From the NCBI RefSeq assembly GCF_003790525.1, contig NZ_CP033635.1: a DNA stretch of 64,000 nt; one strand, written 5' to 3'. The translations under genes were made by a program, and so were the position numbers. This stretch comes from Escherichia coli (GTDB taxonomy: Bacteria; Pseudomonadota; Gammaproteobacteria; Enterobacterales; Enterobacteriaceae). How positions within the stretch are numbered: position 1 is the first letter of the stretch; every line of letters starts with the position of its first letter. Of this stretch, positions 6,841-43,317 are shown piece after piece. Under the pieces are notes generated by a model. It had not been told where the DNA came from and did no database searches. It saw nothing but the letters and a program-made list of their open reading frames with translations.

Positions 6841-7145
6841 TGAAGGAAAAGCCGAGGGGCGTCAACCGAAAAATGACCAATGATGGTGAGGAAAAATCAG
6901 GGAAGTTGAAAAAAACTCATCTTAATTAGAGGCGATAAAAGATTTCTCTATAGCGCAATCCACCTCGCACGTTTTGACTGATATTCTGACAACACAGCGA
7001 CACCTGGGCTTATTCGAAAAACAACGTCCTGCCACCGGATGGTGATGCTAAGGCATCTGATTCGGCCTGCGCCCTCGCGTAGGCCGAATACTGGATCTGC
7101 AAAATCAACTGGTAACAAACAGATGAATCAACTCAATACGTACTT

Positions 7146-8705
7146 TTACTTGATATCTTTCACGCGCATACCGTTGATCTGTTCATCCGTGATGGTGTTA
7201 CCCGCTTTGAAGTAATCAACCACGGCGTGATAAACGTAATAACCGCCCGTTGTGTTACGCGCTTTCCCTTCGGTAAAGGCGGTAAAACCATCTCCACCAT
7301 CAGCAAGGAAACTCTGAGTAGCAATGTGGTAAATCGTCGCATCTTCAATGGGTTTGCCATTCAGAGTCAGCGTGATTACCCGCTGACCAACCGGCTTACT
7401 GCTGTCGTACTTCATTTCCAGGCCTTTCGATACCTGTAAAACGCCATTACTCAAACTTGCGCCGTGTTCCATCAAACTGCGTAATTGTTTACCCGTGAGA
7501 TCCATCGTCACCAGTTCGTTGGGGAACGGGAAGGTACTGATGACGCCACCCATCGTAATTGCACCCGCCGGGATCTCATTGCGAATCCCGCCAGAGTTGG
7601 TTAACGCCAACTGGGTATTTTTACCCGCCGCTGCCAGCAAAGCGTCTGCCGCCAGGTTCCCGAGAGAAGCTGATTCACCATAGGCACGTTTTAGTTCAAC
7701 CGGCGATTGCGCCACCGTTTGTTGCACGACTTCATCCAGCTTTTTGTTCCAACTATCAATCACCTGTTTCGTTTGCGGATCGGGCTTCCACTCATCGGCG
7801 TAAAGGGTTTTAAGCTCGAAGTTTTTCACCGTAAAAGTGTGCGGCTTCTCTTTGTAGTCGAGAACCAGTTTACCGACATCAATCCCGCCGCTGTCAGTGG
7901 AGAGGATTAACGTATTGCCGACTTTAATCGGTTCCGGCGTACCCACATGTGCATGCCCGGTGATCAAAATATCCAACCCTTTCACCTGACTTGCCGTCTG
8001 AATATCTTTATCCAGTGCGCGACGCACATCCGTGCCTCCCATACTGGACTGGCGGGCCGGAACACCTTCGTGGATCAGGGCGACGGTTAGATCAACCTTG
8101 CCTTTGAGTTCATCGATATAACGTTGTAGCCATTTAATTTCATCACGCGCCTCAATACCCACTCGCGTTGCCGCAGATACCGTATCATTAAAGGCAAATA
8201 CACCGTGCAAACCAATCACGCCAATTTTCACGCCGTCTTTTTCAATGATGGTATAGGGCTTATCCCAGAATGATTTACTGCTGTTCTGATAAAAAACATT
8301 ACCCTGCACAATCGGGAATTTTGCCTGACTCAACTGTAATAACGTATTGTCCCAGCCGTGATCAAATTCATGATTACCTATAGTGACCGCATCGAATGGC
8401 ATGGTATTCATAATATCGATAATCGCCTTGCCTTTAGTCAGGCTGCTGATATACGGTCCGGTAAAATAGTCACCCGCATCAAAAAACCAGGTCGCTTTGT
8501 TTTTAGCTTTTTCTTGTTTAACAAGCGTAGTGATATTTGCCCAGCCGCCAATATCCCGTTTACCGTCAGCAATCCACGGCACTTTATAAGGCTCTACATG
8601 TGCATGGAGGTCGTTGGTATAAATGATGGTGACATCTTTGGCGCAAGCCCAAAACGGCAGTGTTAATGCGATACCCGCAGCAAGCATTTTAATTTTCATA
8701 AACAA
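7146..8705 (-). CDS. Secreted bifunctional metallophosphatase/5'-nucleotidase (UshA/YfkN family) paralog A
   Basis: Signal peptide then [33 protein letters not shown] metallophosphatase motifs and a C-terminal 5'-nucleotidase substrate-binding region. Confidence 0.85.
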
Positions 8706-8831
8706 TCCCTTCCAGTGAGATAAAGGATTGCTACATTACGTTCTGAAAGGCTTTTTTATGTGAGAATACTCACATCCAGAGGCGATAACTGTAGGACAAA
8801 ATCAACGACCTTATGAAATCGTTGGTGATAT

Positions 8832-9959
8832 ATGTCAAATCTGTTTGCGATTAATGTCTGTAAAACGTTCGGTTGTCGAAATTTGGGATTGGCCTCATCG
8901 GAAGATTACAGTTGGCCAGACTATAAACTGGGTTTTCCGGCACTGCACTGCCAGGCATGCGGAAGTTACCCCCCTTTGTTTGATGAACAACAATTTCGTG
9001 ACTGGTTGTCAGTTCACATGACTGCGTGTGCCATAGAAACAGGGCATTTTTGTCCATCATGCTATTGTAAAGAAAAGATTTTTTATGGCCACAACCCGCA
9101 GGGAACACAACGCGTTCAATGCCGTTCATGCAAAAAAGTCTGGACTCCGAAACAGCAGCCAGCAAGAGAAATTACGTATCCCCAGTCCATTGAAACCGTT
9201 CAACTGTTCATGCCCTTTCAAGGAGCCAGCGCAGTACAAAAGCTCTATGTTTTAGTCAGTCTTGACGCCACTCGTGGCAACATCCTTCATCTCTCCACGA
9301 ATTATACGCAACATCAGACAGGAGACAGTCTGCGGTACAGTTACAGAGGCAATACAGAACCAACTGAGCACCATAGCGATATTGTGCAGAGGGTAGATAT
9401 GCGTGAAGCGCAATTCTTGCGCCGGAGCCAGTTCGATGAAATTCAGTATGGCAGTGCTGTGCTCAAGCGCAACGGCAAGGGAGCCATACTACGCCCGGTT
9501 ATCACGGCACACGGGCATTTCAGAATACTGAAAATCCGCTTTCCACATGTCAAAACGCATATCATTTCACACGAATGTTTTCTGAGAGGCGCAATTATTA
9601 CAGCCTGGGCAGATCAGTTCCGCCAACAACAAGGCGAACTTTGGTTCGTAGAAGAAGAAATCAGCGACCGTAACGCTGATATTCCCTGGCATTTTCAGGG
9701 AACGACATACCATGGTTGGTGGCAAAATCAGTGGCAACGCTGGGGGCAGGGGAATAACAGCAAGATGGTCTGCCTGCTCACAGGAGTCTCCTTAGAAAGG
9801 GGCGCAAATGTTTCTCTGGCAACCAGTCGTTGCTTTATCACATGGCTGACAGACCAACACGACTTTACCCAAAGCGCGTTATTATCCGCAGGTCGCGTAA
9901 CGAAAATGCTGACCTCACTGGCGTTAAAATACAATGAATCGCTCACTCCATCTTGTTAG
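8832..9959 (+). CDS. Hypothetical Cys-rich protein with putative N-terminal zinc-ribbon
   Basis: 375-aa ORF; N-terminus has paired CxxC motifs (CQAC, CPSC, CRSC); no family confidently recognised. Confidence 0.55.
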   Translation: MSNLFAINVCKTFGCRNLGLASSEDYSWPDYKLGFPALHCQACGSYPPLFDEQQFRDWLSVHMTACAIETGHFCPSCYCKEKIFYGHNPQGTQRVQCRSCKKVWTPKQQPAREITYPQSIETVQLFMPFQGASAVQKLYVLVSLDATRGNILHLSTNYTQHQTGDSLRYSYRGNTEPTEHHSDIVQRVDMREAQFLRRSQFDEIQYGSAVLKRNGKGAILRPVITAHGHFRILKIRFPHVKTHIISHECFLRGAIITAWADQFRQQQGELWFVEEEISDRNADIPWHFQGTTYHGWWQNQWQRWGQGNNSKMVCLLTGVSLERGANVSLATSRCFITWLTDQHDFTQSALLSAGRVTKMLTSLALKYNESLTPSC

Positions 9960-10188
9960 TCAATACACTCGACAAACGACCATAAATTAATGGGATCACT
10001 ATTTCTCATTTAATTAAATATATGAATATATGACTGAAAAATATAATCACAGTCAATGTTTAATTAATAACATTATTTGTTACCAAGATCACATAATACT
10101 TTCCTGACCTATGCTTACATAAAAATAAGACACGGTGTTCCTTTTATTTAAATAATTCAACCAATGTAACAACCCCTATCAAGGAGGG

Positions 10189-11741
10189 ATGATGAGAACT
10201 GTATTTACGACTTTATCAGTCATATTCAGCGTGATGTTTTCTCACAGTATACTAGCTCAGGACGTTACTATTTATTATACGAATGATATTCACGCACATG
10301 TCAATCCGGCAAAAATTCCCGCTGTTGATAAGAACAGACTTGTAGGTGGTATGGCTAATATTGCAGGCATCGTTAATGAAGCGAAGAAAAAAAACAAAGA
10401 TGTCTTTTTCTTTGATGCAGGCGACTATTTTACCGGTCCGTATATCAGTACCCTGACCAAAGGTGAAGCTATTATTGATATCATGAACACCATGCCCTTT
10501 GATGCGGTGTCCGTTGGTAATCACGAGTTCGATCACGGCGTGCCCAATATGGTATCTCAGTTATCAAAAGCAAAATTCCCCATTCTGCTGGGAAATATTT
10601 ACTACACCGATACAAATAAACCAGTTTGGGATCATCCGTGGACCATTATCGAAAAAGATGGTTTAAAGATTGGTGTGATTGGATTGCATGGTGCATTCGC
10701 TTTCTATGATACAGTCGCGGCAAAAGCACGTGAAGGCGTAGAAGCCAGAGACGAAATTAAATATTTAAATAAAGCACTTGCAGAATTAAAAGGTAAAGTC
10801 GACATTACCGTTTTGCTAATTCACGAAGGTGTTCCGGCGCGTCAATCAAGCTTTGGTAGTAAAGATGTGGAGCGGCTACTACAGGCAGATATTGAGACAG
10901 CTAAAAAAGTGAATGGTGTTGATGTCTTAATTACCGGTCACGCACATGTCGGAACACCGCAACCAATAAAAGTTAATAACACATTAATTGTATCTACCGA
11001 TGCATACGGCACCGACATCGGAAAACTTGTGCTTGATTACAATCCGAAAACAAAGAAAATTGATAGTTATAATGGTGAGTTAATCACCATCTTTGCAGAT
11101 CAATTTAAACCTGACACCATCGTTAAAATACTATCGATAAATGGAGCGTAAAGCTTAACAAAATAACACAGGAAGTTGTCGGCCATTCTCCCGTAGTTTT
11201 AACACGTGAGTATGGCAGTTCTTCTTCTACCGGTAATCTTATTCTGGATGCAATGATGGAAAAAACACCTGATGCCATTGCCGGATTTCAAAATAGCGGT
11301 GGGATGCGAGCTGATTTTCCTAAAGGTGATATCACACTGGGAGATGTTATTAGCACATTCCCCTTTAATAATGACCTCATCGAGATGGATTTGACGGGCC
11401 GCGATCTCAAATCGTTGATGACGCATGCAACCAATCTAACTAACGGTGTGTTACAGGTTTCAAAAAGCGTTGCGGTTGTCTATGACAGCAAAAAACCACT
11501 CAACCAACGGTTAATCTCTTTCACCATTAACGGCAAACCCGTGGAAGATAATCAAACATATCGTATTGCCACGCACTCCTTTTGTGCCAGTGGTGGTGAC
11601 GGTTTTGAAGCATTTTTGAATGGAAAAAATGTGAAGACGATACCGGGAACAACCTCGGCGGAATCTATCATCGATTATTTCAAAAATCATAAACCTGTCA
11701 CCCCAGACTTAACTAAACGAGTCATGGACGTCGCCAAATAA
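10189..11741 (+). pseudogene. 5'-nucleotidase paralog B, split by a frameshift
   Basis: Metallophosphatase domain ORF 10189..11151 and 5'-nucleotidase C-domain ORF 11253..11741; the C-domain frame stays open back to ~11127 and aligns with paralog A (IDKWSVKL vs IDSWNKKL), so a 1-nt indel near the A-tract at 11121-11130 is implied. Confidence 0.65.
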
Positions 11742-11775
11742 AATATCATTTATCAGTCTATATATTTAACAAGGA

Positions 11776-13401
11776 ATGCGAATGAAAACAGTGCAGCGTA
11801 CTTTACTTGCCGCAACATTGCTGACTATTTTTTCGGTCTCAGTCATGGCGCAGGATGTCACGATTATTTATACAAATGATCTTCACGCTCATGTGGATTC
11901 TTATAAAGTGCCGTATATCGCAGACGGAAAACGCGACATTGGCGGCTTTGCCAATATATCTACTTTAGTAAAACAGGAGAAAGCGAAAAATAAAGCCACC
12001 TTTTATTTTGATGCTGGAGACTATTTCACCGGCCCTTATATCAGCAGTCTGACAAAGGGCGAAGCAATAATTGACATTATGAATACCATGCCTTTTGACG
12101 CAGTATCAATCGGTAATCATGAGTTTGACCATGGCTGGGATAATGCCCTGCGACAATTAAGCAAAGCGAATTTTCCTGTTTTATTGGGCAATGTTTATCA
12201 TAAAGAGAGTGAGAACCCCTTCTGGAACAAGCCCTACACCATCCTGGAAAAAGATGGCATCAAGATTGGTATTATTGGGCTACACGGCGTATTTGCATTT
12301 AATGATACGGTCTCGGAGCTCTCTCTCCAGGGACTCGATAATGACAATAATAACCGCTTTGATAAATCTTCCGAGACCCTTAAGAATCAGGGGATTGAAG
12401 CACGTGATGAAGTGAAGTATTTGCAGCATTATATCGACGAGTTACGTGATAAGGTTGACCTCACTGTGGCGCTGGTTCATGAAGGCGTTCCGGCGCGTCA
12501 GTCCAGCATTGGCAATACAGATGTTAGACGCGCTCTTGATAAAGATATTCAAACCGCTAGCAAGGTGAAAGGATTGGATATTCTGATTACCGGGCATGCC
12601 CACGTCGGAACGCCAGAACCAATCAAAGTCGGCAACACCTTAATCCTTTCAACTGATAGTGGAGGTATCGATATTGGTAAATTAGTCCTTGATGTCAACC
12701 CTACAGCTCGTACCCATAAAATGAAGAGCTTTGAGCTGAAAACAGTTTATGCCGATGAATGGATACCCGATCCAACGACACAAAAAGTTATCAATGGCTG
12801 GAATAAAAAACTGGCGGATATTGTACGCCAACCAGTGGGTGAATCATCGATTGCATTAACTCGCGCCTATGGTGAGTCATCGCAACTAGGCAACCTGTTT
12901 ACCGATGCAATGCTTGTCGCTGCTCCGACTGCACAGATTGCATTGATAAACTCCGGCAGCTTACGTGCGGATATAAATGCAGGCACGATTACCTTTGGCG
13001 ACATTACCAGTACATTCCCCTTCAAGAATGAACTTACTGAAATGGATCTCAGCGGTAAGGATCTGCGTAACCTACTGGAACACGGGGCATCGCTTACCAA
13101 TGGCATCCTGCAAATGTCAAAAGGCGCAGAAATGCGCTATACCCCGCAGAAACCAGTAGGTCAGCGCATAGTATCTTTTAAAATTAATGGTGAAGAGATC
13201 GTTGATACGAATATTTACCATGTTGCAACAACGACTTTCCTTGCACTGGGGGGCGATGGTTTTCTGGCATTCAAAGAAGGGAAAAATGTTCAGGTCCGCG
13301 CCGGAAATAACATGTCCGATGTCGTGATCGATTATTTGAAGAAAGGCCACAAGATTACGCCTGCACAGGTAAATGAAATGCGGGTGGACGTTAGCAAATA
13401 A
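11776..13401 (+). CDS. Secreted bifunctional metallophosphatase/5'-nucleotidase (UshA/YfkN family) paralog C
   Basis: Signal peptide, same motif set as paralog A, with an extra D/N-rich insertion (DNDNNNRFDKSSETLKNQG). Confidence 0.85.
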   Translation: MRMKTVQRTLLAATLLTIFSVSVMAQDVTIIYTNDLHAHVDSYKVPYIADGKRDIGGFANISTLVKQEKAKNKATFYFDAGDYFTGPYISSLTKGEAIIDIMNTMPFDAVSIGNHEFDHGWDNALRQLSKANFPVLLGNVYHKESENPFWNKPYTILEKDGIKIGIIGLHGVFAFNDTVSELSLQGLDNDNNNRFDKSSETLKNQGIEARDEVKYLQHYIDELRDKVDLTVALVHEGVPARQSSIGNTDVRRALDKDIQTASKVKGLDILITGHAHVGTPEPIKVGNTLILSTDSGGIDIGKLVLDVNPTARTHKMKSFELKTVYADEWIPDPTTQKVINGWNKKLADIVRQPVGESSIALTRAYGESSQLGNLFTDAMLVAAPTAQIALINSGSLRADINAGTITFGDITSTFPFKNELTEMDLSGKDLRNLLEHGASLTNGILQMSKGAEMRYTPQKPVGQRIVSFKINGEEIVDTNIYHVATTTFLALGGDGFLAFKEGKNVQVRAGNNMSDVVIDYLKKGHKITPAQVNEMRVDVSK

Positions 13402-13409
13402 TAAAAAAA

Positions 13410-13442
13410 TTATAATGCCATTCATTCACTGAATGGCATTAT
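13410..13442 (+). terminator. Hairpin terminator after nucleotidase paralog C
   Basis: Inverted repeat aatgccattca ... tgaatggcatt followed by a T-rich run. Confidence 0.5.
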
Positions 13443-13478
13443 TTTCTCTAAATCAACAATAGATAATGAGATATATTT

Positions 13479-14339
13479 ATGTGTATAAAAAAGCACGGGA
13501 TAGCTTTATCGATTCTATTAATACCTTGCATTGGAAACGCTCAGGAAATTAAAAGTGAGGAAGGCTGGTTACATCAAAGCTTGAATGTCATTGGTCGCAC
13601 AGACTCTCGCTTTGGCCCAAGGCTGACTAACGACCTCTACCCTGAATATACTGTAGCAGGAAGAAAAGACTGGTTTGATTTTTATGGTTATGTTGATCTA
13701 CCAAAATTCTTTGGCGTCGGCAGTCACTATGATGTTGGGATCTGGGATGAGGGCTCACCACTATTTACGGAAATAGAACCTCGGTTTTCCATTGACAAAT
13801 TGACCGGATTAAATCTTGCGTTCGGCCCTTTTAAAGAATGGTTCATTGCAAACAACTATGTCTATGATATGGGTGACAACCAGTCATCCCGGCAAAGTAC
13901 ATGGTATATGGGGCTTGGTACAGATATCGACACGGGTCTACCAATTAAGCTTTCTGCCAATATATACGCCAAGTATCAGTGGCAAAACTATGGTGCCGCT
14001 AATGAAAATGAATGGGACGGATATCGATTCAAAATAAAATATAGCATTCCTCTTACCCATTTATTCGGAGGGCGATTGGTATACAATAGTTTTACTAACT
14101 TTGATTTTGGCTCCGATCTTGCGGACAAATCACACAATAATAAACGAACCAGTAATGCTATTGCTTCAAGCCATATCCTTTCCCTGCTATATGAACACTG
14201 GAAATTTGCATTTACACTACGTTATTTTCACAACGGTGGACAATGGAATGCTGGGGAGAAAGTTAACTTCGGAGATGGTCCATTTGAATTAAAAAACACA
14301 GGATGGGGAACCTATACTACTATTGGTTATCAATTTTAA
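13479..14339 (+). CDS. Tsx-family nucleoside-specific outer-membrane channel paralog
   Basis: Signal peptide; [64 protein letters not shown] blocks match E. coli Tsx as I recall it; C-terminal aromatic residue. Confidence 0.85.
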
Positions 14340-27901: not shown

Positions 27902-28588
27902 ATGGACGTATTCATGCAAAATATTATTCTTTTATTTATATATTTATTACTTATAGTCGTTAACCATTTCCGCTACAAATTCCTTTTGTCTGGCAACACG
28001 GGTGAAATGATTTTATATTTTGCTAACGTATTTTTTAACCCACTTGCCTTATCATTTATTATCGCCACAATCATCTGTATAACGATAAAAAAAAGAAGCA
28101 GCCACAGCTTTATTCGCGGCACTTGTTGGTTAATGGGATTATTTCTTATCTATAGCAGCTATACAGTGTGGGAACGACACAGCACATGGGATTATACTTT
28201 CCCGGGGCCAGGTATCACCGTCACAGTTCCGAGCAAACAGTGGGTTGCCAATATAGTAAAACAAGGACCAATCCTGGTGACTCGGGATGCCCATGCTATT
28301 TTAGTTATTGTTGCCTTCTCACAAAATGAACTCGGTGTGCATTCAATCGAGGAACTTACCGCGACTCAAAACGGAACTGCAGAAATGCATGTTTGTGATG
28401 TTAAGGGATTTGCCTGCGCTTATCAGGAAGGAATTCAAACAATGAGTGATGGCAAAATAAGACATGCTATTTTCATGACTCTACTGGATAACACTAATTT
28501 GATACGACTGGTCGCAGCTATCGACCCAGATTATTTGGACGAATATCAAGAAGAAGTAATGAAAATGATACTTTCTGCCCATCAATAA
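27902..28588 (+). CDS. Hypothetical membrane-anchored protein, tandem paralog 1 (AT-rich islet)
   Basis: 228 aa; N-terminal hydrophobic helices then a soluble domain; shares LLSGxxG, IKKxxxxSFxRGxCW, WxYTF..ITVTxP, HVCxxKxFxCxYQ blocks with the next ORF. Confidence 0.6.
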   Translation: MDVFMQNIILLFIYLLLIVVNHFRYKFLLSGNTGEMILYFANVFFNPLALSFIIATIICITIKKRSSHSFIRGTCWLMGLFLIYSSYTVWERHSTWDYTFPGPGITVTVPSKQWVANIVKQGPILVTRDAHAILVIVAFSQNELGVHSIEELTATQNGTAEMHVCDVKGFACAYQEGIQTMSDGKIRHAIFMTLLDNTNLIRLVAAIDPDYLDEYQEEVMKMILSAHQ

Positions 28589-28620
28589 TCTGATGTGCAT
28601 GTTAATAATAAGGGATTGAT

Positions 28621-29337
28621 ATGAGATACGTTATCTTATTAATACTATGGATAATAACTACTTTTCTTAGTCATCTTCAGCACAGCAACCTACTGTCTGG
28701 AGATCCTGGCATGGTTGGCGAGTATATCGGTTCAGTATTTCTGGGGCCGTTGTTACTTCCCGTGCTTGTGTCAGGTATTCTGTGCGCATTTATTAAAAAA
28801 ACACGTAACTTCGCCAGTTTTACTCGCGGGTGCTGTTGGGTATTGGGAATCCTGCTTTTATCCAAAGTCGGCAATACGTTTCGTATGTTTACCCCGTGGC
28901 AATATACCTTTGAGAATGCTGCGATAACCGTGACTATCCCGAACCGACACTGGAATACGGTTTCCATTAGTACTAATGAAACCATTGATATAAGAAGTGA
29001 GGATAATAGCGTCTTCATTTCTGCTTTCCGCCTGCCCGCAGGACGTAGCGCCGATGACCCGCTGGAAGCGTTAAAGAAGAAGCAGCGAGACAATCTCAAG
29101 GATCAATACAATGAGGAAGCCTTCCAGTTTCATGTTTGTAATGCCAAACATTTCACCTGTAAGTATCAGGATGTGTTGATAAATTTTGATGGTCAGCAGA
29201 AAAGAACCATCAGTGTTTATCTTGAAGACACCCCCAGGGCTGTGGGGATCATTGCATTAATGGCGCCAGATACGGCAGATAAATATCGCCAACAGGCGAT
29301 GGAGATTATGCTTTCCGCTAAAAATGCAGTGAAGTAA
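28621..29337 (+). CDS. Hypothetical membrane-anchored protein, tandem paralog 2 (AT-rich islet)
   Basis: 238 aa; same architecture and motif blocks as paralog 1. Confidence 0.6.
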   Translation: MRYVILLILWIITTFLSHLQHSNLLSGDPGMVGEYIGSVFLGPLLLPVLVSGILCAFIKKTRNFASFTRGCCWVLGILLLSKVGNTFRMFTPWQYTFENAAITVTIPNRHWNTVSISTNETIDIRSEDNSVFISAFRLPAGRSADDPLEALKKKQRDNLKDQYNEEAFQFHVCNAKHFTCKYQDVLINFDGQQKRTISVYLEDTPRAVGIIALMAPDTADKYRQQAMEIMLSAKNAVK

Positions 29338-29366
29338 AAAATAAGGCGCCTTGCGGCGCCTCTGCA
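29338..29366. terminator. Bidirectional terminator shared by paralog 2 and zapB
   Basis: aaaaaataaggcgccttgcggcgcct: GC palindrome flanked by an A/T run. Confidence 0.6.
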
Positions 29367-41891: not shown

Positions 41892-43317
41892 TAATGCCGA
41901 TCAGTTAAGGATCAGTTGACCGATCCAGTGGCTGTGTAAGAATCCGGAAACGCTCACTTGTTTCCGGATTTTTTTATGCACATTGGACAGGCTCTTGATC
42001 TGGTATCCCGTTACGATTCTCTGCGTAACCCACTGACTTCTCTGGGGGATTACCTCGACCCCGAACTCATCTCTCGTTGCCTTGCCGAATCAGGTACTGT
42101 AACGCTACGCAAGCGCCGTCTTCCCCTCGAAATGATGGTCTGGTGTATTGTTGGCATGGCGCTTGAGCGTAAAGAACCTCTTCACCAGATTGTGAATCGC
42201 CTGGACATCATGCTGCCGGGCAATCGCCCCTTCGTTGCCCCCAGTGCCGTTATTCAGGCCCGCCAGCGCCTGGGAAGTGAGGCTGTCCGCCGCGTGTTCA
42301 CGAAAACAGCGCAGCTCTGGCATAACGCCACGCCGCATCCGCACTGGTGCGGCCTGACCCTGCTGGCCATCGATGGTGTGTTCTGGCGCACACCGGATAC
42401 ACCAGAGAACGATGCAGCCTTCCCCCGCCAGACACATGCCGGGAACCCGGCGCTCTACCCGCAGGTCAAAATGGTCTGCCAGATGGAACTGACCAGCCAT
42501 CTGCTGACGGCTGCAGCCTTCGGCACGATGAAGAACAGCGAAAATGAGCTTGCTGAGCAACTTATAGAACAAACCGGCGATAACACTCTGACGTTAATGG
42601 ATAAAGGTTATTACTCACTGGGACTGTTAAATGCCTGGAGCCTGGCGGGAGAACACCGCCACTGGATGATACCTCTCAGAAAGGGAGCGCAATATGAAGA
42701 GATCAGAAAACTGGGTAAAGGCGATCATCTGGTGAAGCTGAAAACCAGCCCGCAGGCACGAAAAAAGTGGCCGGGACTGGGAAATGAAGTGACAGCCCGC
42801 CTGCTGACCGTGACGCGCAAAGGAAAAGTCTGCCATCTGCTGACGTCGATGACGGACGCCATGCGCTTCCCCGGAGGAGAAATGGCGGATCTGTACAGTC
42901 ATCGCTGGGAAATCGAACTGGGATACAGGGAGATAAAACAGACGATGCAACTGAGCAGGCTGACGCTGAGAAGTAAAAAACCGGAGCTTGTGGAGCAAGA
43001 GCTGTGGGGTGTCTTACTGGCTTATAATCTGGTGAGATATCAGATGATTAAAATGGCGGAATATCTGAAAGGTTACTGGCCGAATCAACTGAGTTTCTCA
43101 GAATCATGTGGAATGGTGATGAGAATGCTGATGACATTGCAGGGCGCTTCACCGGGACGTATACCGGAGCTGATGCGCGATCTTGCAAGTATGGGACAAC
43201 TTGTGAAATTACCGACAAGAAGGGAAAGGGCCTTCCCGAGAGTGGTAAAGGAGAGGCCCTGGAAATACCCCACAGCCCCGAAAAAGAGCCAGTCAGTTGC
43301 TTAACTGACTGGCATTA
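41892..43317 (+). mobile_element. Insertion sequence IS4 (1426 bp, apparently intact)
   Basis: Terminal inverted repeats taatgccgatcagttaagg (left) and gcttaactgactggcatta (right, reverse complement taatgccagtcagttaagc); single transposase ORF; 13-bp direct repeats on both sides. Confidence 0.9.
41976..43304 (+). CDS. insG: IS4 transposase
   Basis: 442-aa translation [40 protein letters not shown]... matches IS4 transposase as I recall it. Confidence 0.9.

What the first reader, a model, noticed from the sequence alone, without database searches (positions are those of the whole stretch)
27902..29337. AT-rich two-gene islet of tandem paralogous membrane proteins between rraA and zapB
Two adjacent same-strand ORFs (228 and 238 aa) are clear paralogs with shared motif blocks (LLSGxxG, IKKxxxxSFxRGxCW, WxYTF..ITVTxP, HVCxxKxFxCxYQ, xPDxxDxYxxxxMxxMLSA) and the same architecture of N-terminal hydrophobic helices plus a soluble domain. 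They sit in a low-GC block bracketed by the rraA terminator and the shared zapB terminator. From memory, K-12 has no genes between rraA and zapB. Tandem divergent paralogs of small membrane proteins suggest immunity-protein arrays or exclusion factors, but no family was recognised.
Basis: partly seen in the sequence, partly recalled or inferred. Interest (0 to 1): 0.6.

Follow-up and report, generated by a model that had tools for sequence, protein, structure and literature searches.

The report
Fast-evolving PsbP-like membrane protein pair
Two adjacent genes beside rraA in this E. coli strain encode related inner-membrane proteins with a periplasmic binding domain of a known fold; they are an old, fast-diverging, often-lost enterobacterial gene pair of untested function, not a freshly acquired island or a recognisable toxin-immunity module.

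Summary
The window is E. coli SMS-3-5. Two same-strand ORFs (27914-28588 and 28621-29337) lie between rraA and zapB. They are true paralogs (29% identity, E=1e-34) and AT-rich (38.5% and 43.7% GC; neighbours 51-53%). K-12 and CFT073 have only 84 bp at this site. About 12% of complete E. coli genomes carry the pair.

The locus is ancestral, not mobile. Family members sit directly 3' of rraA in Escherichia species, Kluyvera, Atlantibacter and unnamed enterics, whatever lies downstream. Both paralog types predate these genera and were lost differentially. dS is of the same order as the flanks between species. dN/dS is 0.1-0.6, highest in the periplasmic domain. No toxin, T6SS, phage or plasmid link was found.

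Best reading: non-catalytic, membrane-tethered periplasmic binders. Whether they are protective or DcrB-like is unresolved. Interest is moderate.

The parts
27871..27898 (+). rraA intrinsic terminator specific to the occupied allele (AAAAGGGGAATTAAATTCCCCTTTTTT). It ends 16 nt before the ORF1 ATG.
   Evidence: The terminator scan found it. It folds at -13.2 kcal/mol with z=-3.9. The same hairpin is conserved after rraA in every occupied locus, including other genera. The K-12 allele uses a different hairpin.
27914..28588 (+). ORF1, 224 aa (WP_001572157.1). It is an inner-membrane protein with TM region about aa 1-86 (27914-28171) and a periplasmic PsbP/Mog1-like domain about aa 87-224 (28172-28585).
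   Evidence: ORF and annotation. Homologues start at MQNIILL. dN/dS is 0.2-0.5 overall, 0.16 in the TM region and 0.59 in the periplasmic domain.
28589..28620 (+). A 32-nt ORF1-ORF2 spacer with the Shine-Dalgarno-like AAGGGA 7 nt before the ORF2 ATG. No terminator was detected in it, so the two genes are probably co-transcribed.
   Evidence: Sequence. The block ATAATAAGGGATTGAT is 100% conserved before ORF2 orthologues in the four Escherichia single-copy loci and in E. coli WL297. The scan found no terminator in the spacer.
28621..29337 (+). ORF2, 238 aa (old tag EcSMS35_4369; PGAP's WP_122991692.1 is a truncated 208-aa call). TM1 is about aa 2-26, TM2 29-57, the basic cytoplasmic loop 58-70 and TM3 64-90 (28621-28890). 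The periplasmic domain is aa 91-238 (28891-29334), with the conserved VTVPxxxW motif and the C173/C180 pair.
29343..29362 (-). zapB terminator hairpin, with a U6 tract on the - strand only. On the + strand it follows ORF2 without a U tract.

Best explanation
ORF1 and ORF2 are real, anciently duplicated genes for small non-catalytic inner-membrane proteins.

Architecture (predicted from sequence and model):
- The N terminus is in the cytoplasm.
- Three TM helices follow, with a conserved basic cytoplasmic loop (KKxRxxxSFxRG) between TM2 and TM3.
- The C-terminal domain of about 145 residues has a Mog1/PsbP/DUF1795-like alpha/beta fold and faces the periplasm.
- A conserved Cys pair on adjacent hairpin strands probably forms a disulfide.

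Evolution (shown by comparison):
- The pair occupies an ancestral Enterobacteriaceae slot directly 3' of the rraA terminator.
- It was inherited vertically.
- It evolves much faster than its neighbours, mostly in the periplasmic domain.
- One or both copies have been lost repeatedly, including in K-12 and CFT073.

Mechanism (inferred):
- Characterised bacterial proteins of this fold act by binding rather than catalysis.
- I therefore propose that each protein is a membrane-tethered periplasmic binder that holds or sequesters a ligand at the outer face of the inner membrane.
- The constrained TM part would serve as anchor and docking surface. The variable periplasmic domain would contact a variable partner.
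- Rapid periplasmic-domain divergence, copy-number turnover and presence/absence polymorphism lead me to favour narrowly a protective role over an endogenous housekeeping role. A protective role means neutralising or excluding an incoming envelope-acting toxin or a phage component.

Expression (inferred): probably read-through of the fairly weak rraA terminator, because no promoter-like site lies between rraA and ORF1.
For: The genes are real:
- Intact ORFs occur in every Escherichia locus examined. dN/dS is 0.10-0.5, against 0.00-0.05 for neighbours.
- The paralogs align at E=1e-34.

Architecture:
- The AF2 model has pLDDT 85, three long helices and a beta-rich domain.
- Loop 58-70 carries a mean of 4.1 K/R, against 0.7 in loop 1, across 25 members.
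- C173 is conserved in 24 of 25 members and C180 in 25 of 25, on hairpin strands 171-175 and 178-189.

Fold:
- It is 10.1 for TplEi, 9.3 for Mog1, 9.1 for SciW, 8.9 for Tsi3 and 8.7 for DcrB.
- Foldseek against AFDB finds many proteins combining TM helices with a DUF1795/PsbP_C domain.

Ancestral slot:
- rraA-X adjacency holds in E. albertii, E. whittamii, cryptic clades, Kluyvera, Atlantibacter and unnamed enterics.
- It holds whether zapB, pfkA or an esterase operon follows.
- One organism carries both paralog types (HslU 96% identical; X proteins 51% and 40%). Two related organisms each retain a different type in the same slot (esterase 88.5% identical; X proteins 25%).
- Between species, dS in ORF2 (0.19-0.37) overlaps that of rraA, hslU and menA (0.12-0.66).

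Fast periplasmic evolution: dN/dS is 0.26 (ORF2) and 0.59 (ORF1) in the periplasmic domain, against 0.13 and 0.16 in the TM region.

Binding role of relatives:
- Eag chaperones (DUF1795) bind effector TM helices (PMC7773334).
- DcrB is an inner-membrane lipoprotein linked to membrane fluidity, Lgt and phage DNA injection (PMC9487459 and the references cited in PMC7773334).
Against: - There is no experimental datum on these genes.
- The fold is generic, so it does not specify the ligand.
- No toxin, secretion-system or phage gene lies next to any family member with informative flanks. This weakens the protective sub-hypothesis.
- Overall dN/dS is below 1, and no site-level test for positive selection was possible with 6-8 alleles.
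- Fast evolution and loss could reflect weak constraint rather than conflict.
- Topology and the disulfide are predicted, not measured.
- Read-through expression is inferred only from the lack of consensus promoter matches.
Confidence: 0.4

Rival explanations
1. DcrB/LpqN-like housekeeping accessory. The periplasmic domain binds an endogenous envelope component at the inner-membrane surface, such as a lipid, a lipoprotein precursor or a transporter partner. It would tune membrane or lipoprotein homeostasis, perhaps in stationary phase through coupling to the rraA transcript.
For: - The gene sits at a fixed chromosomal position among housekeeping genes and was inherited vertically.
- It lies right behind the rraA terminator in several genera.
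- The TM region and the cytoplasmic loop are conserved, suggesting a conserved membrane partner.
Against: - The genes are dispensable: about 88% of complete E. coli genomes lack them.
- Orthologues are only 31-51% identical where neighbours are 90-97% identical.
- No sequence match to the DcrB HMM was found, and there is no lipobox.
Confidence: 0.27
2. Small membrane modulator of a conserved inner-membrane machine, such as a sensor kinase, transporter or protease, in the manner of MzrA- or MgrB-type accessory proteins. The TM helices and basic loop would dock to the partner, and the periplasmic domain would sense a cue.
For: - The TM part is more constrained than the periplasmic domain (dN/dS 0.13-0.16 against 0.26-0.59).
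- Polar and basic residues in and around the membrane are invariant in the close family: H18, C55, K59, K60, R62, R69 and G70.
- There is no cytoplasmic output domain of its own.
Against: - No partner gene is conserved nearby.
- This is pure inference from architecture.
- The TM motifs are not conserved in the distant members.
Confidence: 0.13
3. One reading: a horizontally acquired AT-rich islet carrying an array of orphan immunity proteins against T6SS, CDI or colicin toxins.
For: - The genes are AT-rich.
- They are tandem divergent paralogs.
- They show presence/absence polymorphism within E. coli.
- The fold is shared with Tsi3, TplEi and Tli5.
- dS between the SMS-3-5 and O157 ORF2 alleles (0.16) is about 8-10 times that of flanking rraA and zapB (0.02), so the alleles are older than the flanks.
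Against: - The same slot is occupied across genera, and between-species dS is of the same order as in the flanks.
- There are no integrase, IS, tRNA or repeat boundaries.
- There is no homologue in 50,697 phage records or in IMG/VR contigs. The only hit in the plasmid collection is a mislabelled 4.9-Mb chromosome.
- PADLOC finds nothing.
- None of the 34 family clusters whose context was readable is paired with a toxin.
Confidence: 0.1
4. Decaying relics with no present function.
For: - The genes have been lost often, in K-12, CFT073 and single-copy lineages.
- Some strains carry IS insertions or truncations.
- dN/dS is relatively high for ORF1's periplasmic domain (0.59, from small counts).
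Against: - Full-length ORFs are retained across species with saturated or high dS and dN/dS of 0.1-0.3.
- The Cys pair and the P107/W111 motif are conserved down to about 20% identity.
- In the sampled rows of the 657 genomes that hold the whole islet, two CDSs are annotated.
Confidence: 0.07

Closest known systems
DcrB (E. coli/Salmonella inner-membrane lipoprotein; Pfam PF08786 DcrB/DUF1795; PDB 6e8a)
   Different: DcrB is anchored by a lipid on a lipobox cysteine, not by three TM helices. It is conserved and present in K-12. The window proteins do not match the Pfam HMM. They also carry a family-specific CxxxxFxCxYQ hairpin.
Eag chaperones of the T6SS (EagT6/PA0094, PDB 1tu1; SciW, PDB 6xrb; DUF1795)
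   Different: Eag proteins are soluble and cytoplasmic and are encoded next to prePAAR/Rhs effectors. The window proteins are membrane-anchored with a predicted periplasmic domain, and no effector lies nearby.
Periplasmic T6SS immunity proteins of the same fold (Tsi3, PDB 4luq; TplEi, PDB 5h7y; the PldA immunity protein PA3488, PDB 7wdk)
   Different: Those immunity genes sit beside their effector genes in T6SS-linked clusters. Here no effector was found in any examined context, and the locus is syntenic across genera.
PsbP/CyanoP and mycobacterial LpqN/Mtc28/Apa (extracytoplasmic PsbP-like proteins)
   Different: They come from unrelated lineages and use different anchors (signal peptide or lipoprotein). 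There is no significant sequence similarity: the PsbP HMM reaches only E=3.4e-3 in 1 of 25 members.

Membership tests
Pfam DcrB/DUF1795 (PF08786) | Significant match to the family HMM | tested here: not met
   hmmscan of ORF1, ORF2 and all 25 members of alignment A2 gave no DUF1795 hit at E<=0.1. One UniRef entry for the E. albertii orthologue carries the name, but it could not be reproduced.
Mog1/PsbP-like fold superfamily | Antiparallel beta-sheet sandwiched by helices, superposable on PsbP, Mog1 and DUF1795 structures | tested here: met
DcrB-type lipoproteins | Signal peptide with lipobox (L-[AS]-[GA]-C) and lipid anchor | tested here: not met
   There is no lipobox cysteine after the first helix. 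The sequence is LLSGD or LLSGN, and three TM helices are predicted instead.
T6SS Eag chaperones | Soluble cytoplasmic protein encoded next to a prePAAR/Rhs effector | tested here: not met
   The proteins have three TM helices and a predicted periplasmic domain. The neighbours are hslVU, menA, rraA, zapB and glpFK.
T6SS/CDI/colicin immunity proteins | Gene adjacent to, or derived from a locus with, a cognate toxin gene | tested here: not met
   The readable contexts in Escherichia, Kluyvera, Atlantibacter, unnamed enterics and a distant MAG show no toxin or secretion genes. No plasmid-borne homologue was found.
T6SS/CDI/colicin immunity proteins | Specific neutralisation of a toxin | not testable with these tools
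   This needs competition or co-expression assays.
Known anti-phage defence systems (PADLOC) and phage protein families (PHROGs) | Match to a defence or phage family model | tested here: not met
   PADLOC gave 0 families. PHROGs gave only E=0.15 to a 49-aa family of unknown function. tblastn against phages and a scan of IMG/VR found no match.
Horizontally acquired genomic islet | Mobility genes or boundaries, patchy non-syntenic distribution, and divergence decoupled from the flanks | tested here: not met
   No integrase, IS or tRNA is present in the islet. The rraA-proximal slot is the same in several genera. Between-species dS is of the same order as in the flanks. Only the low GC fits.

The most novel reading that the evidence does not exclude
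The rraA-proximal slot encodes a previously unrecognised class of chromosomally fixed, vertically inherited but diversifying periplasmic guard proteins. They would be membrane-tethered DcrB/Tsi3-like binders that intercept envelope-crossing invaders at the inner-membrane surface. Such invaders could be phage DNA-injection machinery that uses the DcrB/SdaC route, colicins or T6SS effectors. The two ancient paralog types would cover different ligands, and their loss or retention would shape strain-level susceptibility.
Probability: 0.15. Interest if true: 0.7.

Novelty: new variant of a known kind. Interest (0 to 1): 0.38.

Why it matters
If these proteins have a function, it would be assigned to a gene pair carried by important pathogens. 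Carriers found here include O157:H7, O145:NM, ExPEC strain UMN026, Shigella and E. albertii. K-12 lacks the pair, which explains why it has never been studied.

The locus is also a clean example of an ancient, position-locked, fast-evolving slot in the core chromosome. Such slots are easily mistaken for acquired islands because of low GC and patchy presence.

A concrete by-product is an annotation correction. RefSeq's 208-aa call for ORF2 and its orthologues drops the first transmembrane helix.

Without a phenotype this remains an uncharacterised family with a familiar fold, so its present importance is moderate.

Tried and rejected
Sequence-family searches found nothing significant:
- Pfam gave a best hit of E=0.13-0.27.
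- NCBIfam gave only OB-fold hits at E=0.06-0.11, far below the cut-offs.
- PADLOC found nothing. PHROGs gave E=0.15.
- A profile search of PDB sequences gave a best E of 0.66.

Mobile-element links were rejected:
- The phage collection gave no match.
- The plasmid collection gave one hit, a 4.9-Mb chromosome filed as a plasmid.
- IMG/VR contigs gave no match. A first attempt with alignment A2 failed because it had no conserved stretch to search with.
- BFVD gave only weak matches to phage lipoproteins, with TM-scores of 0.5 or less.

An RNA element in or around the islet was rejected. Rfam gave only sub-threshold hits (SraG 26.9 bits against a gathering score of 50; sraA 25.3 against 56), and these lie over the terminator hairpin.

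Literature searches led nowhere:
- WP accessions and the old tag EcSMS35_4369 (with a guessed neighbouring tag) returned no paper.

I looked for a deletion scar in the 84-bp K-12 spacer. Only hairpin-level similarity to the zapB terminator region was found, which is not informative.

A lipoprotein anchor was considered because of the LLSG motif. It was rejected because no cysteine follows.

A further profile search of the 5.8-billion-protein set added no named relatives.
Full report
**Identity of the window and check of the observation**

The interval is 100% identical to E. coli SMS-3-5 (NC_010498.1). The local gene order is hslV-hslU-menA-rraA-[ORF1][ORF2]-zapB(-)-glpF-glpK.

- Both ORFs are on the + strand.
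PGAP and all homologues begin with MQNIILL.
- ORF2 runs from 28621 to 29337 (238 aa).
- BLASTP between the two gives 29% identity over 234 residues, E=1e-34.
- GC is 38.5% for ORF1 and 43.7% for ORF2, against 51-53% for the neighbours.
- An rraA terminator hairpin with a U6 tract lies at 27871-27898. The zapB terminator lies at 29343-29362.
- K-12 MG1655 has rraA, then 84 bp, then zapB, with no gene between. CFT073 has the same 84-bp allele with three differences.

**Distribution within E. coli**

The 1.48-kb islet is at least 80% covered in 657 of 5,426 complete E. coli genomes. It is partly present in about 20 more, always chromosomal. In the sampled rows it is annotated as two hypothetical proteins.

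- Carriers include SMS-3-5, O157:H7, O145:NM and UMN026.
- From my own knowledge these strains belong to phylogroups F, E and D. K-12 is A and CFT073 is B2.
- Some strains keep only ORF2, for example WL297.
- Others have IS1 or other IS disruptions, including a Shigella dysenteriae transposase fusion.

**What the proteins are**

No curated sequence library recognises them. This covers Pfam, NCBIfam, PADLOC, PHROGs and a profile search of PDB sequences.

An exhaustive HMM search of 1.84 billion representative proteins found only 34 clusters. Most are 227-241 aa and the rest are fragments.

With a 25-sequence alignment, AlphaFold2 gave a confident model (pLDDT 85, pTM 0.73).
- Three long helices cover residues 2-26, 29-57 and 64-90.
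- A beta-rich domain with two helices covers residues 93-238.

Positive-inside counts were taken across the 25 family members.
- The loop between helices 2 and 3 carries on average 4.1 Lys/Arg and 0.1 Asp/Glu.
- The loop between helices 1 and 2 carries 0.7 Lys/Arg.
- The rule therefore places the N terminus and loop 2 in the cytoplasm and the C-terminal domain in the periplasm.

P107 and W111 are invariant, and C173 and C180 are conserved in 24 and 25 of the 25 members. The cysteines lie opposite each other on hairpin strands 171-175 and 178-189. This fits a periplasmic disulfide, but that is an inference.

Foldseek against AFDB finds family members in Shigella boydii, Klebsiella oxytoca and UMN026. 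Beyond those it finds many uncharacterised proteins that combine TM helices with a DUF1795/PsbP_C domain, in some cases from Planctomycetes or Verrucomicrobia.

**The locus is ancestral, not an insertion**

Every enterobacterial relative with readable flanks lies in the same slot, either immediately 3' of rraA or against zapB.
- The Escherichia loci are E. whittamii, E. albertii, two unnamed Escherichia species and a divergent record labelled E. coli. In each, family genes lie between rraA and zapB, or after rraA where the contig ends. One locus has both copies and four have only the ORF2 type.
- An unnamed enteric has both types in the same order. Its HslU is 96% and its RraA 97.5% identical to E. 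coli, but its X proteins are only 51% and 40% identical.
- In Atlantibacter subterraneus the order is rraA, an nlpA-like gene, X, zapB.
- A Kluyvera-like organism has rraA-X followed by an esterase-MFS-AraC operon.
- Another organism has rraA-X followed by pfkA-fieF.
- One organism has RraA and ZapB each 91% identical to E. coli, yet the gene between them is only about 22% identical to ORF2.
- One distant member is preceded by a 28-codon fossil of the rraA 3' end plus the same terminator hairpin.

The hairpin AAAAGGGGAATTAAATTCCCCTTTTTT is conserved after rraA in all occupied loci.

Two related organisms each keep a different paralog type in the same slot. Their esterase, MFS and AraC proteins are 88.5%, 94.7% and 89% identical, but their X proteins (P0030 and P0034) are only 25% identical. 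The tandem duplication is therefore old, and lineages have lost one, the other or both copies.

Single-copy Escherichia loci have a 260-nt AT-rich spacer.
- In two of the five, the stretch from the rraA stop codon into the spacer matches window 27852-27938 at 84-85% over 87 nt. That span runs into the first 25 nt of ORF1, so these spacers still start with a remnant of its 5' end.
- The spacer also contains a promoter-like site, TTCACA-16-AATTAT.

**Selection**

Nei-Gojobori estimates were made between Escherichia alleles.
- dN/dS is 0.35-0.48 for ORF1 and 0.10-0.28 for ORF2.
- dN/dS is 0.00-0.05 for rraA, zapB, hslU and menA.
- Between-species dS in ORF2 (0.19-0.37) overlaps that of the flanking genes (0.12-0.66), as expected for vertical co-inheritance.
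- The TM region is more constrained (0.13 in ORF2, 0.16 in ORF1) than the periplasmic domain (0.26 in ORF2, 0.59 in ORF1). Counts for ORF1 are small.
- The first 30 codons of ORF2 have dN/dS 0.11, and all orthologues keep the long reading frame. The 238-aa start is therefore right, and the RefSeq 208-aa call is truncated.
- Between SMS-3-5 and O157, dS in ORF2 (0.16) is about 8-10 times that of rraA and zapB (0.02). The islet alleles appear older than their recombined flanks.

**Links that were looked for and not found**

- No phage record, viral contig or true plasmid carries a homologue.
- BFVD gave only weak matches to phage lipoproteins.
- No Rfam family reaches threshold in the region.
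- No toxin, T6SS, CDI or colicin gene is adjacent to a family member in any readable context.
- In the window, the nearest mobile DNA is an IS4 and a P2-like prophage beside fieF, more than 12 kb away.
- No paper mentions the genes.

**How it most likely works**

Shown: the genes are real, the fold assignment is secure, the slot is syntenic across genera, and divergence is fast and domain-biased.

Predicted: the topology and the disulfide.

Inferred: the function.
- Characterised bacterial members of this fold act by binding. Eag chaperones clasp effector TM helices (PMC7773334).
- From their PDB titles and my own knowledge, Tsi3, TplEi and Tli5 neutralise periplasmic effectors, and LpqN binds lipids and transporter partners.
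- DcrB is an inner-membrane lipoprotein tied to membrane fluidity and Lgt function, and historically to phage DNA injection.
- I therefore read ORF1 and ORF2 as non-catalytic, membrane-tethered periplasmic binders.
- The variable periplasmic face, the copy-number turnover and the old presence/absence polymorphism tilt me slightly towards a protective, immunity- or exclusion-like role.
- The fixed housekeeping position and the absence of any partner toxin keep a DcrB-like endogenous role almost as likely.

Expression is probably by read-through of the rraA terminator (-13.2 kcal/mol). That hairpin is weaker than the K-12 allele's (-17.7 kcal/mol). No promoter-like site lies between rraA's own promoter region and ORF1, and ORF1 starts 16 nt after the U tract.

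**Comparison with known families, and verdict**

The proteins work like DcrB, Tsi3 or Eag-type binding modules. They fail the sequence test for DUF1795 membership, lack the lipobox of DcrB, and lack the genomic context of Eag chaperones and of immunity proteins.

They are best filed as a new, very small sequence family. It is a polytopic-anchor variant within the Mog1/PsbP-like superfamily.

The immunity-array reading remains possible but unsupported by context, and the 'islet' is better described as a retained ancestral locus.

Interest is moderate. This is a clean, testable, pathogen-relevant unknown, but its fold is familiar and no mechanism has yet been demonstrated.

Noticed in passing
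window 28621-28710 (and RefSeq WP_122991692.1, WP_000232687.1, WP_123057342.1): PGAP calls ORF2 and its orthologues as 208 aa starting at Met31, which removes the first TM helix. The upstream 30 codons are conserved between paralogs and species (dN/dS 0.11) and are preceded by AAGGGA. The older GenBank call EcSMS35_4369 has the full 238 aa.
   Followed up: yes
window 27871-27898; L003, L004-L008, L011, L015, L016, L026, L028: The rraA terminator hairpin AAAAGGGGAATTAAATTCCCCTTTTTT is conserved across genera wherever the slot is occupied. The empty K-12/CFT073 allele has a different, stronger hairpin (GGCACCGCAAGGTGCC). The two allele classes differ over the whole intergenic region, from the rraA stop codon (TAA against TGA) to the zapB stop codon (TAA against TGA).
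   Followed up: partly
window 28621-29337 compared with L021 (O157:H7): Synonymous divergence between the SMS-3-5 and O157 ORF2 alleles (dS 0.16) is about 8-10 times that of the directly flanking rraA and zapB (about 0.02). This suggests old islet alleles embedded in recombined flanks. Counts are small.
   Followed up: partly
L028 1594-2718 and L029 (Logan contigs ERR11042056, SRR33728011): A distant family member (P0046) is preceded by a fossil of only the last 28 codons of rraA plus the conserved terminator hairpin. Unrelated sequence and a DUF4225 gene lie upstream. This points to a rearrangement with a breakpoint inside rraA that carried the gene along.
   Followed up: partly
L003 9761-10072: In the unnamed enterobacterium with both paralogs, a 103-aa Y1 transposase gene (PF01797) lies between the ORF2-type gene and zapB. 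I take it to be of the REP-associated kind.
   Followed up: no
window about 41958-64000: An IS4 element (about 41958-43304) and a P2-like prophage (from ogrK at about 43343 to the end of the window) are inserted beside fieF. An unrelated enterobacterial contig (L026) also has P2-like genes next to fieF, so this looks like a shared attachment site.
   Followed up: no
window about 7145-14324: A second non-K-12 block lies between metL and metF. It holds a Tsx-like channel pseudogene, three paralogous bifunctional metallophosphatase/5'-nucleotidase genes and a hypothetical gene. CFT073 has the same block with an intact Tsx paralog. That K-12 lacks this block is from memory and was not checked here.
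   Followed up: no
P0017 (Shigella dysenteriae 1617); H63 (E. coli 100416): In Shigella dysenteriae the ORF2 orthologue is fused to or disrupted by an IS transposase. In one E. coli genome an IS1 sits inside the islet. These are examples of ongoing inactivation.
   Followed up: no
L022 1602-1629; L004, L006 and L008 spacers: Single-copy loci carry a conserved AT-rich block (TTCACATCTGACAATATAAATTAATTATCGA) with a promoter-like TTCACA-16-AATTAT. This block is absent from the two-copy allele, so the two allele types may be expressed differently.
   Followed up: partly
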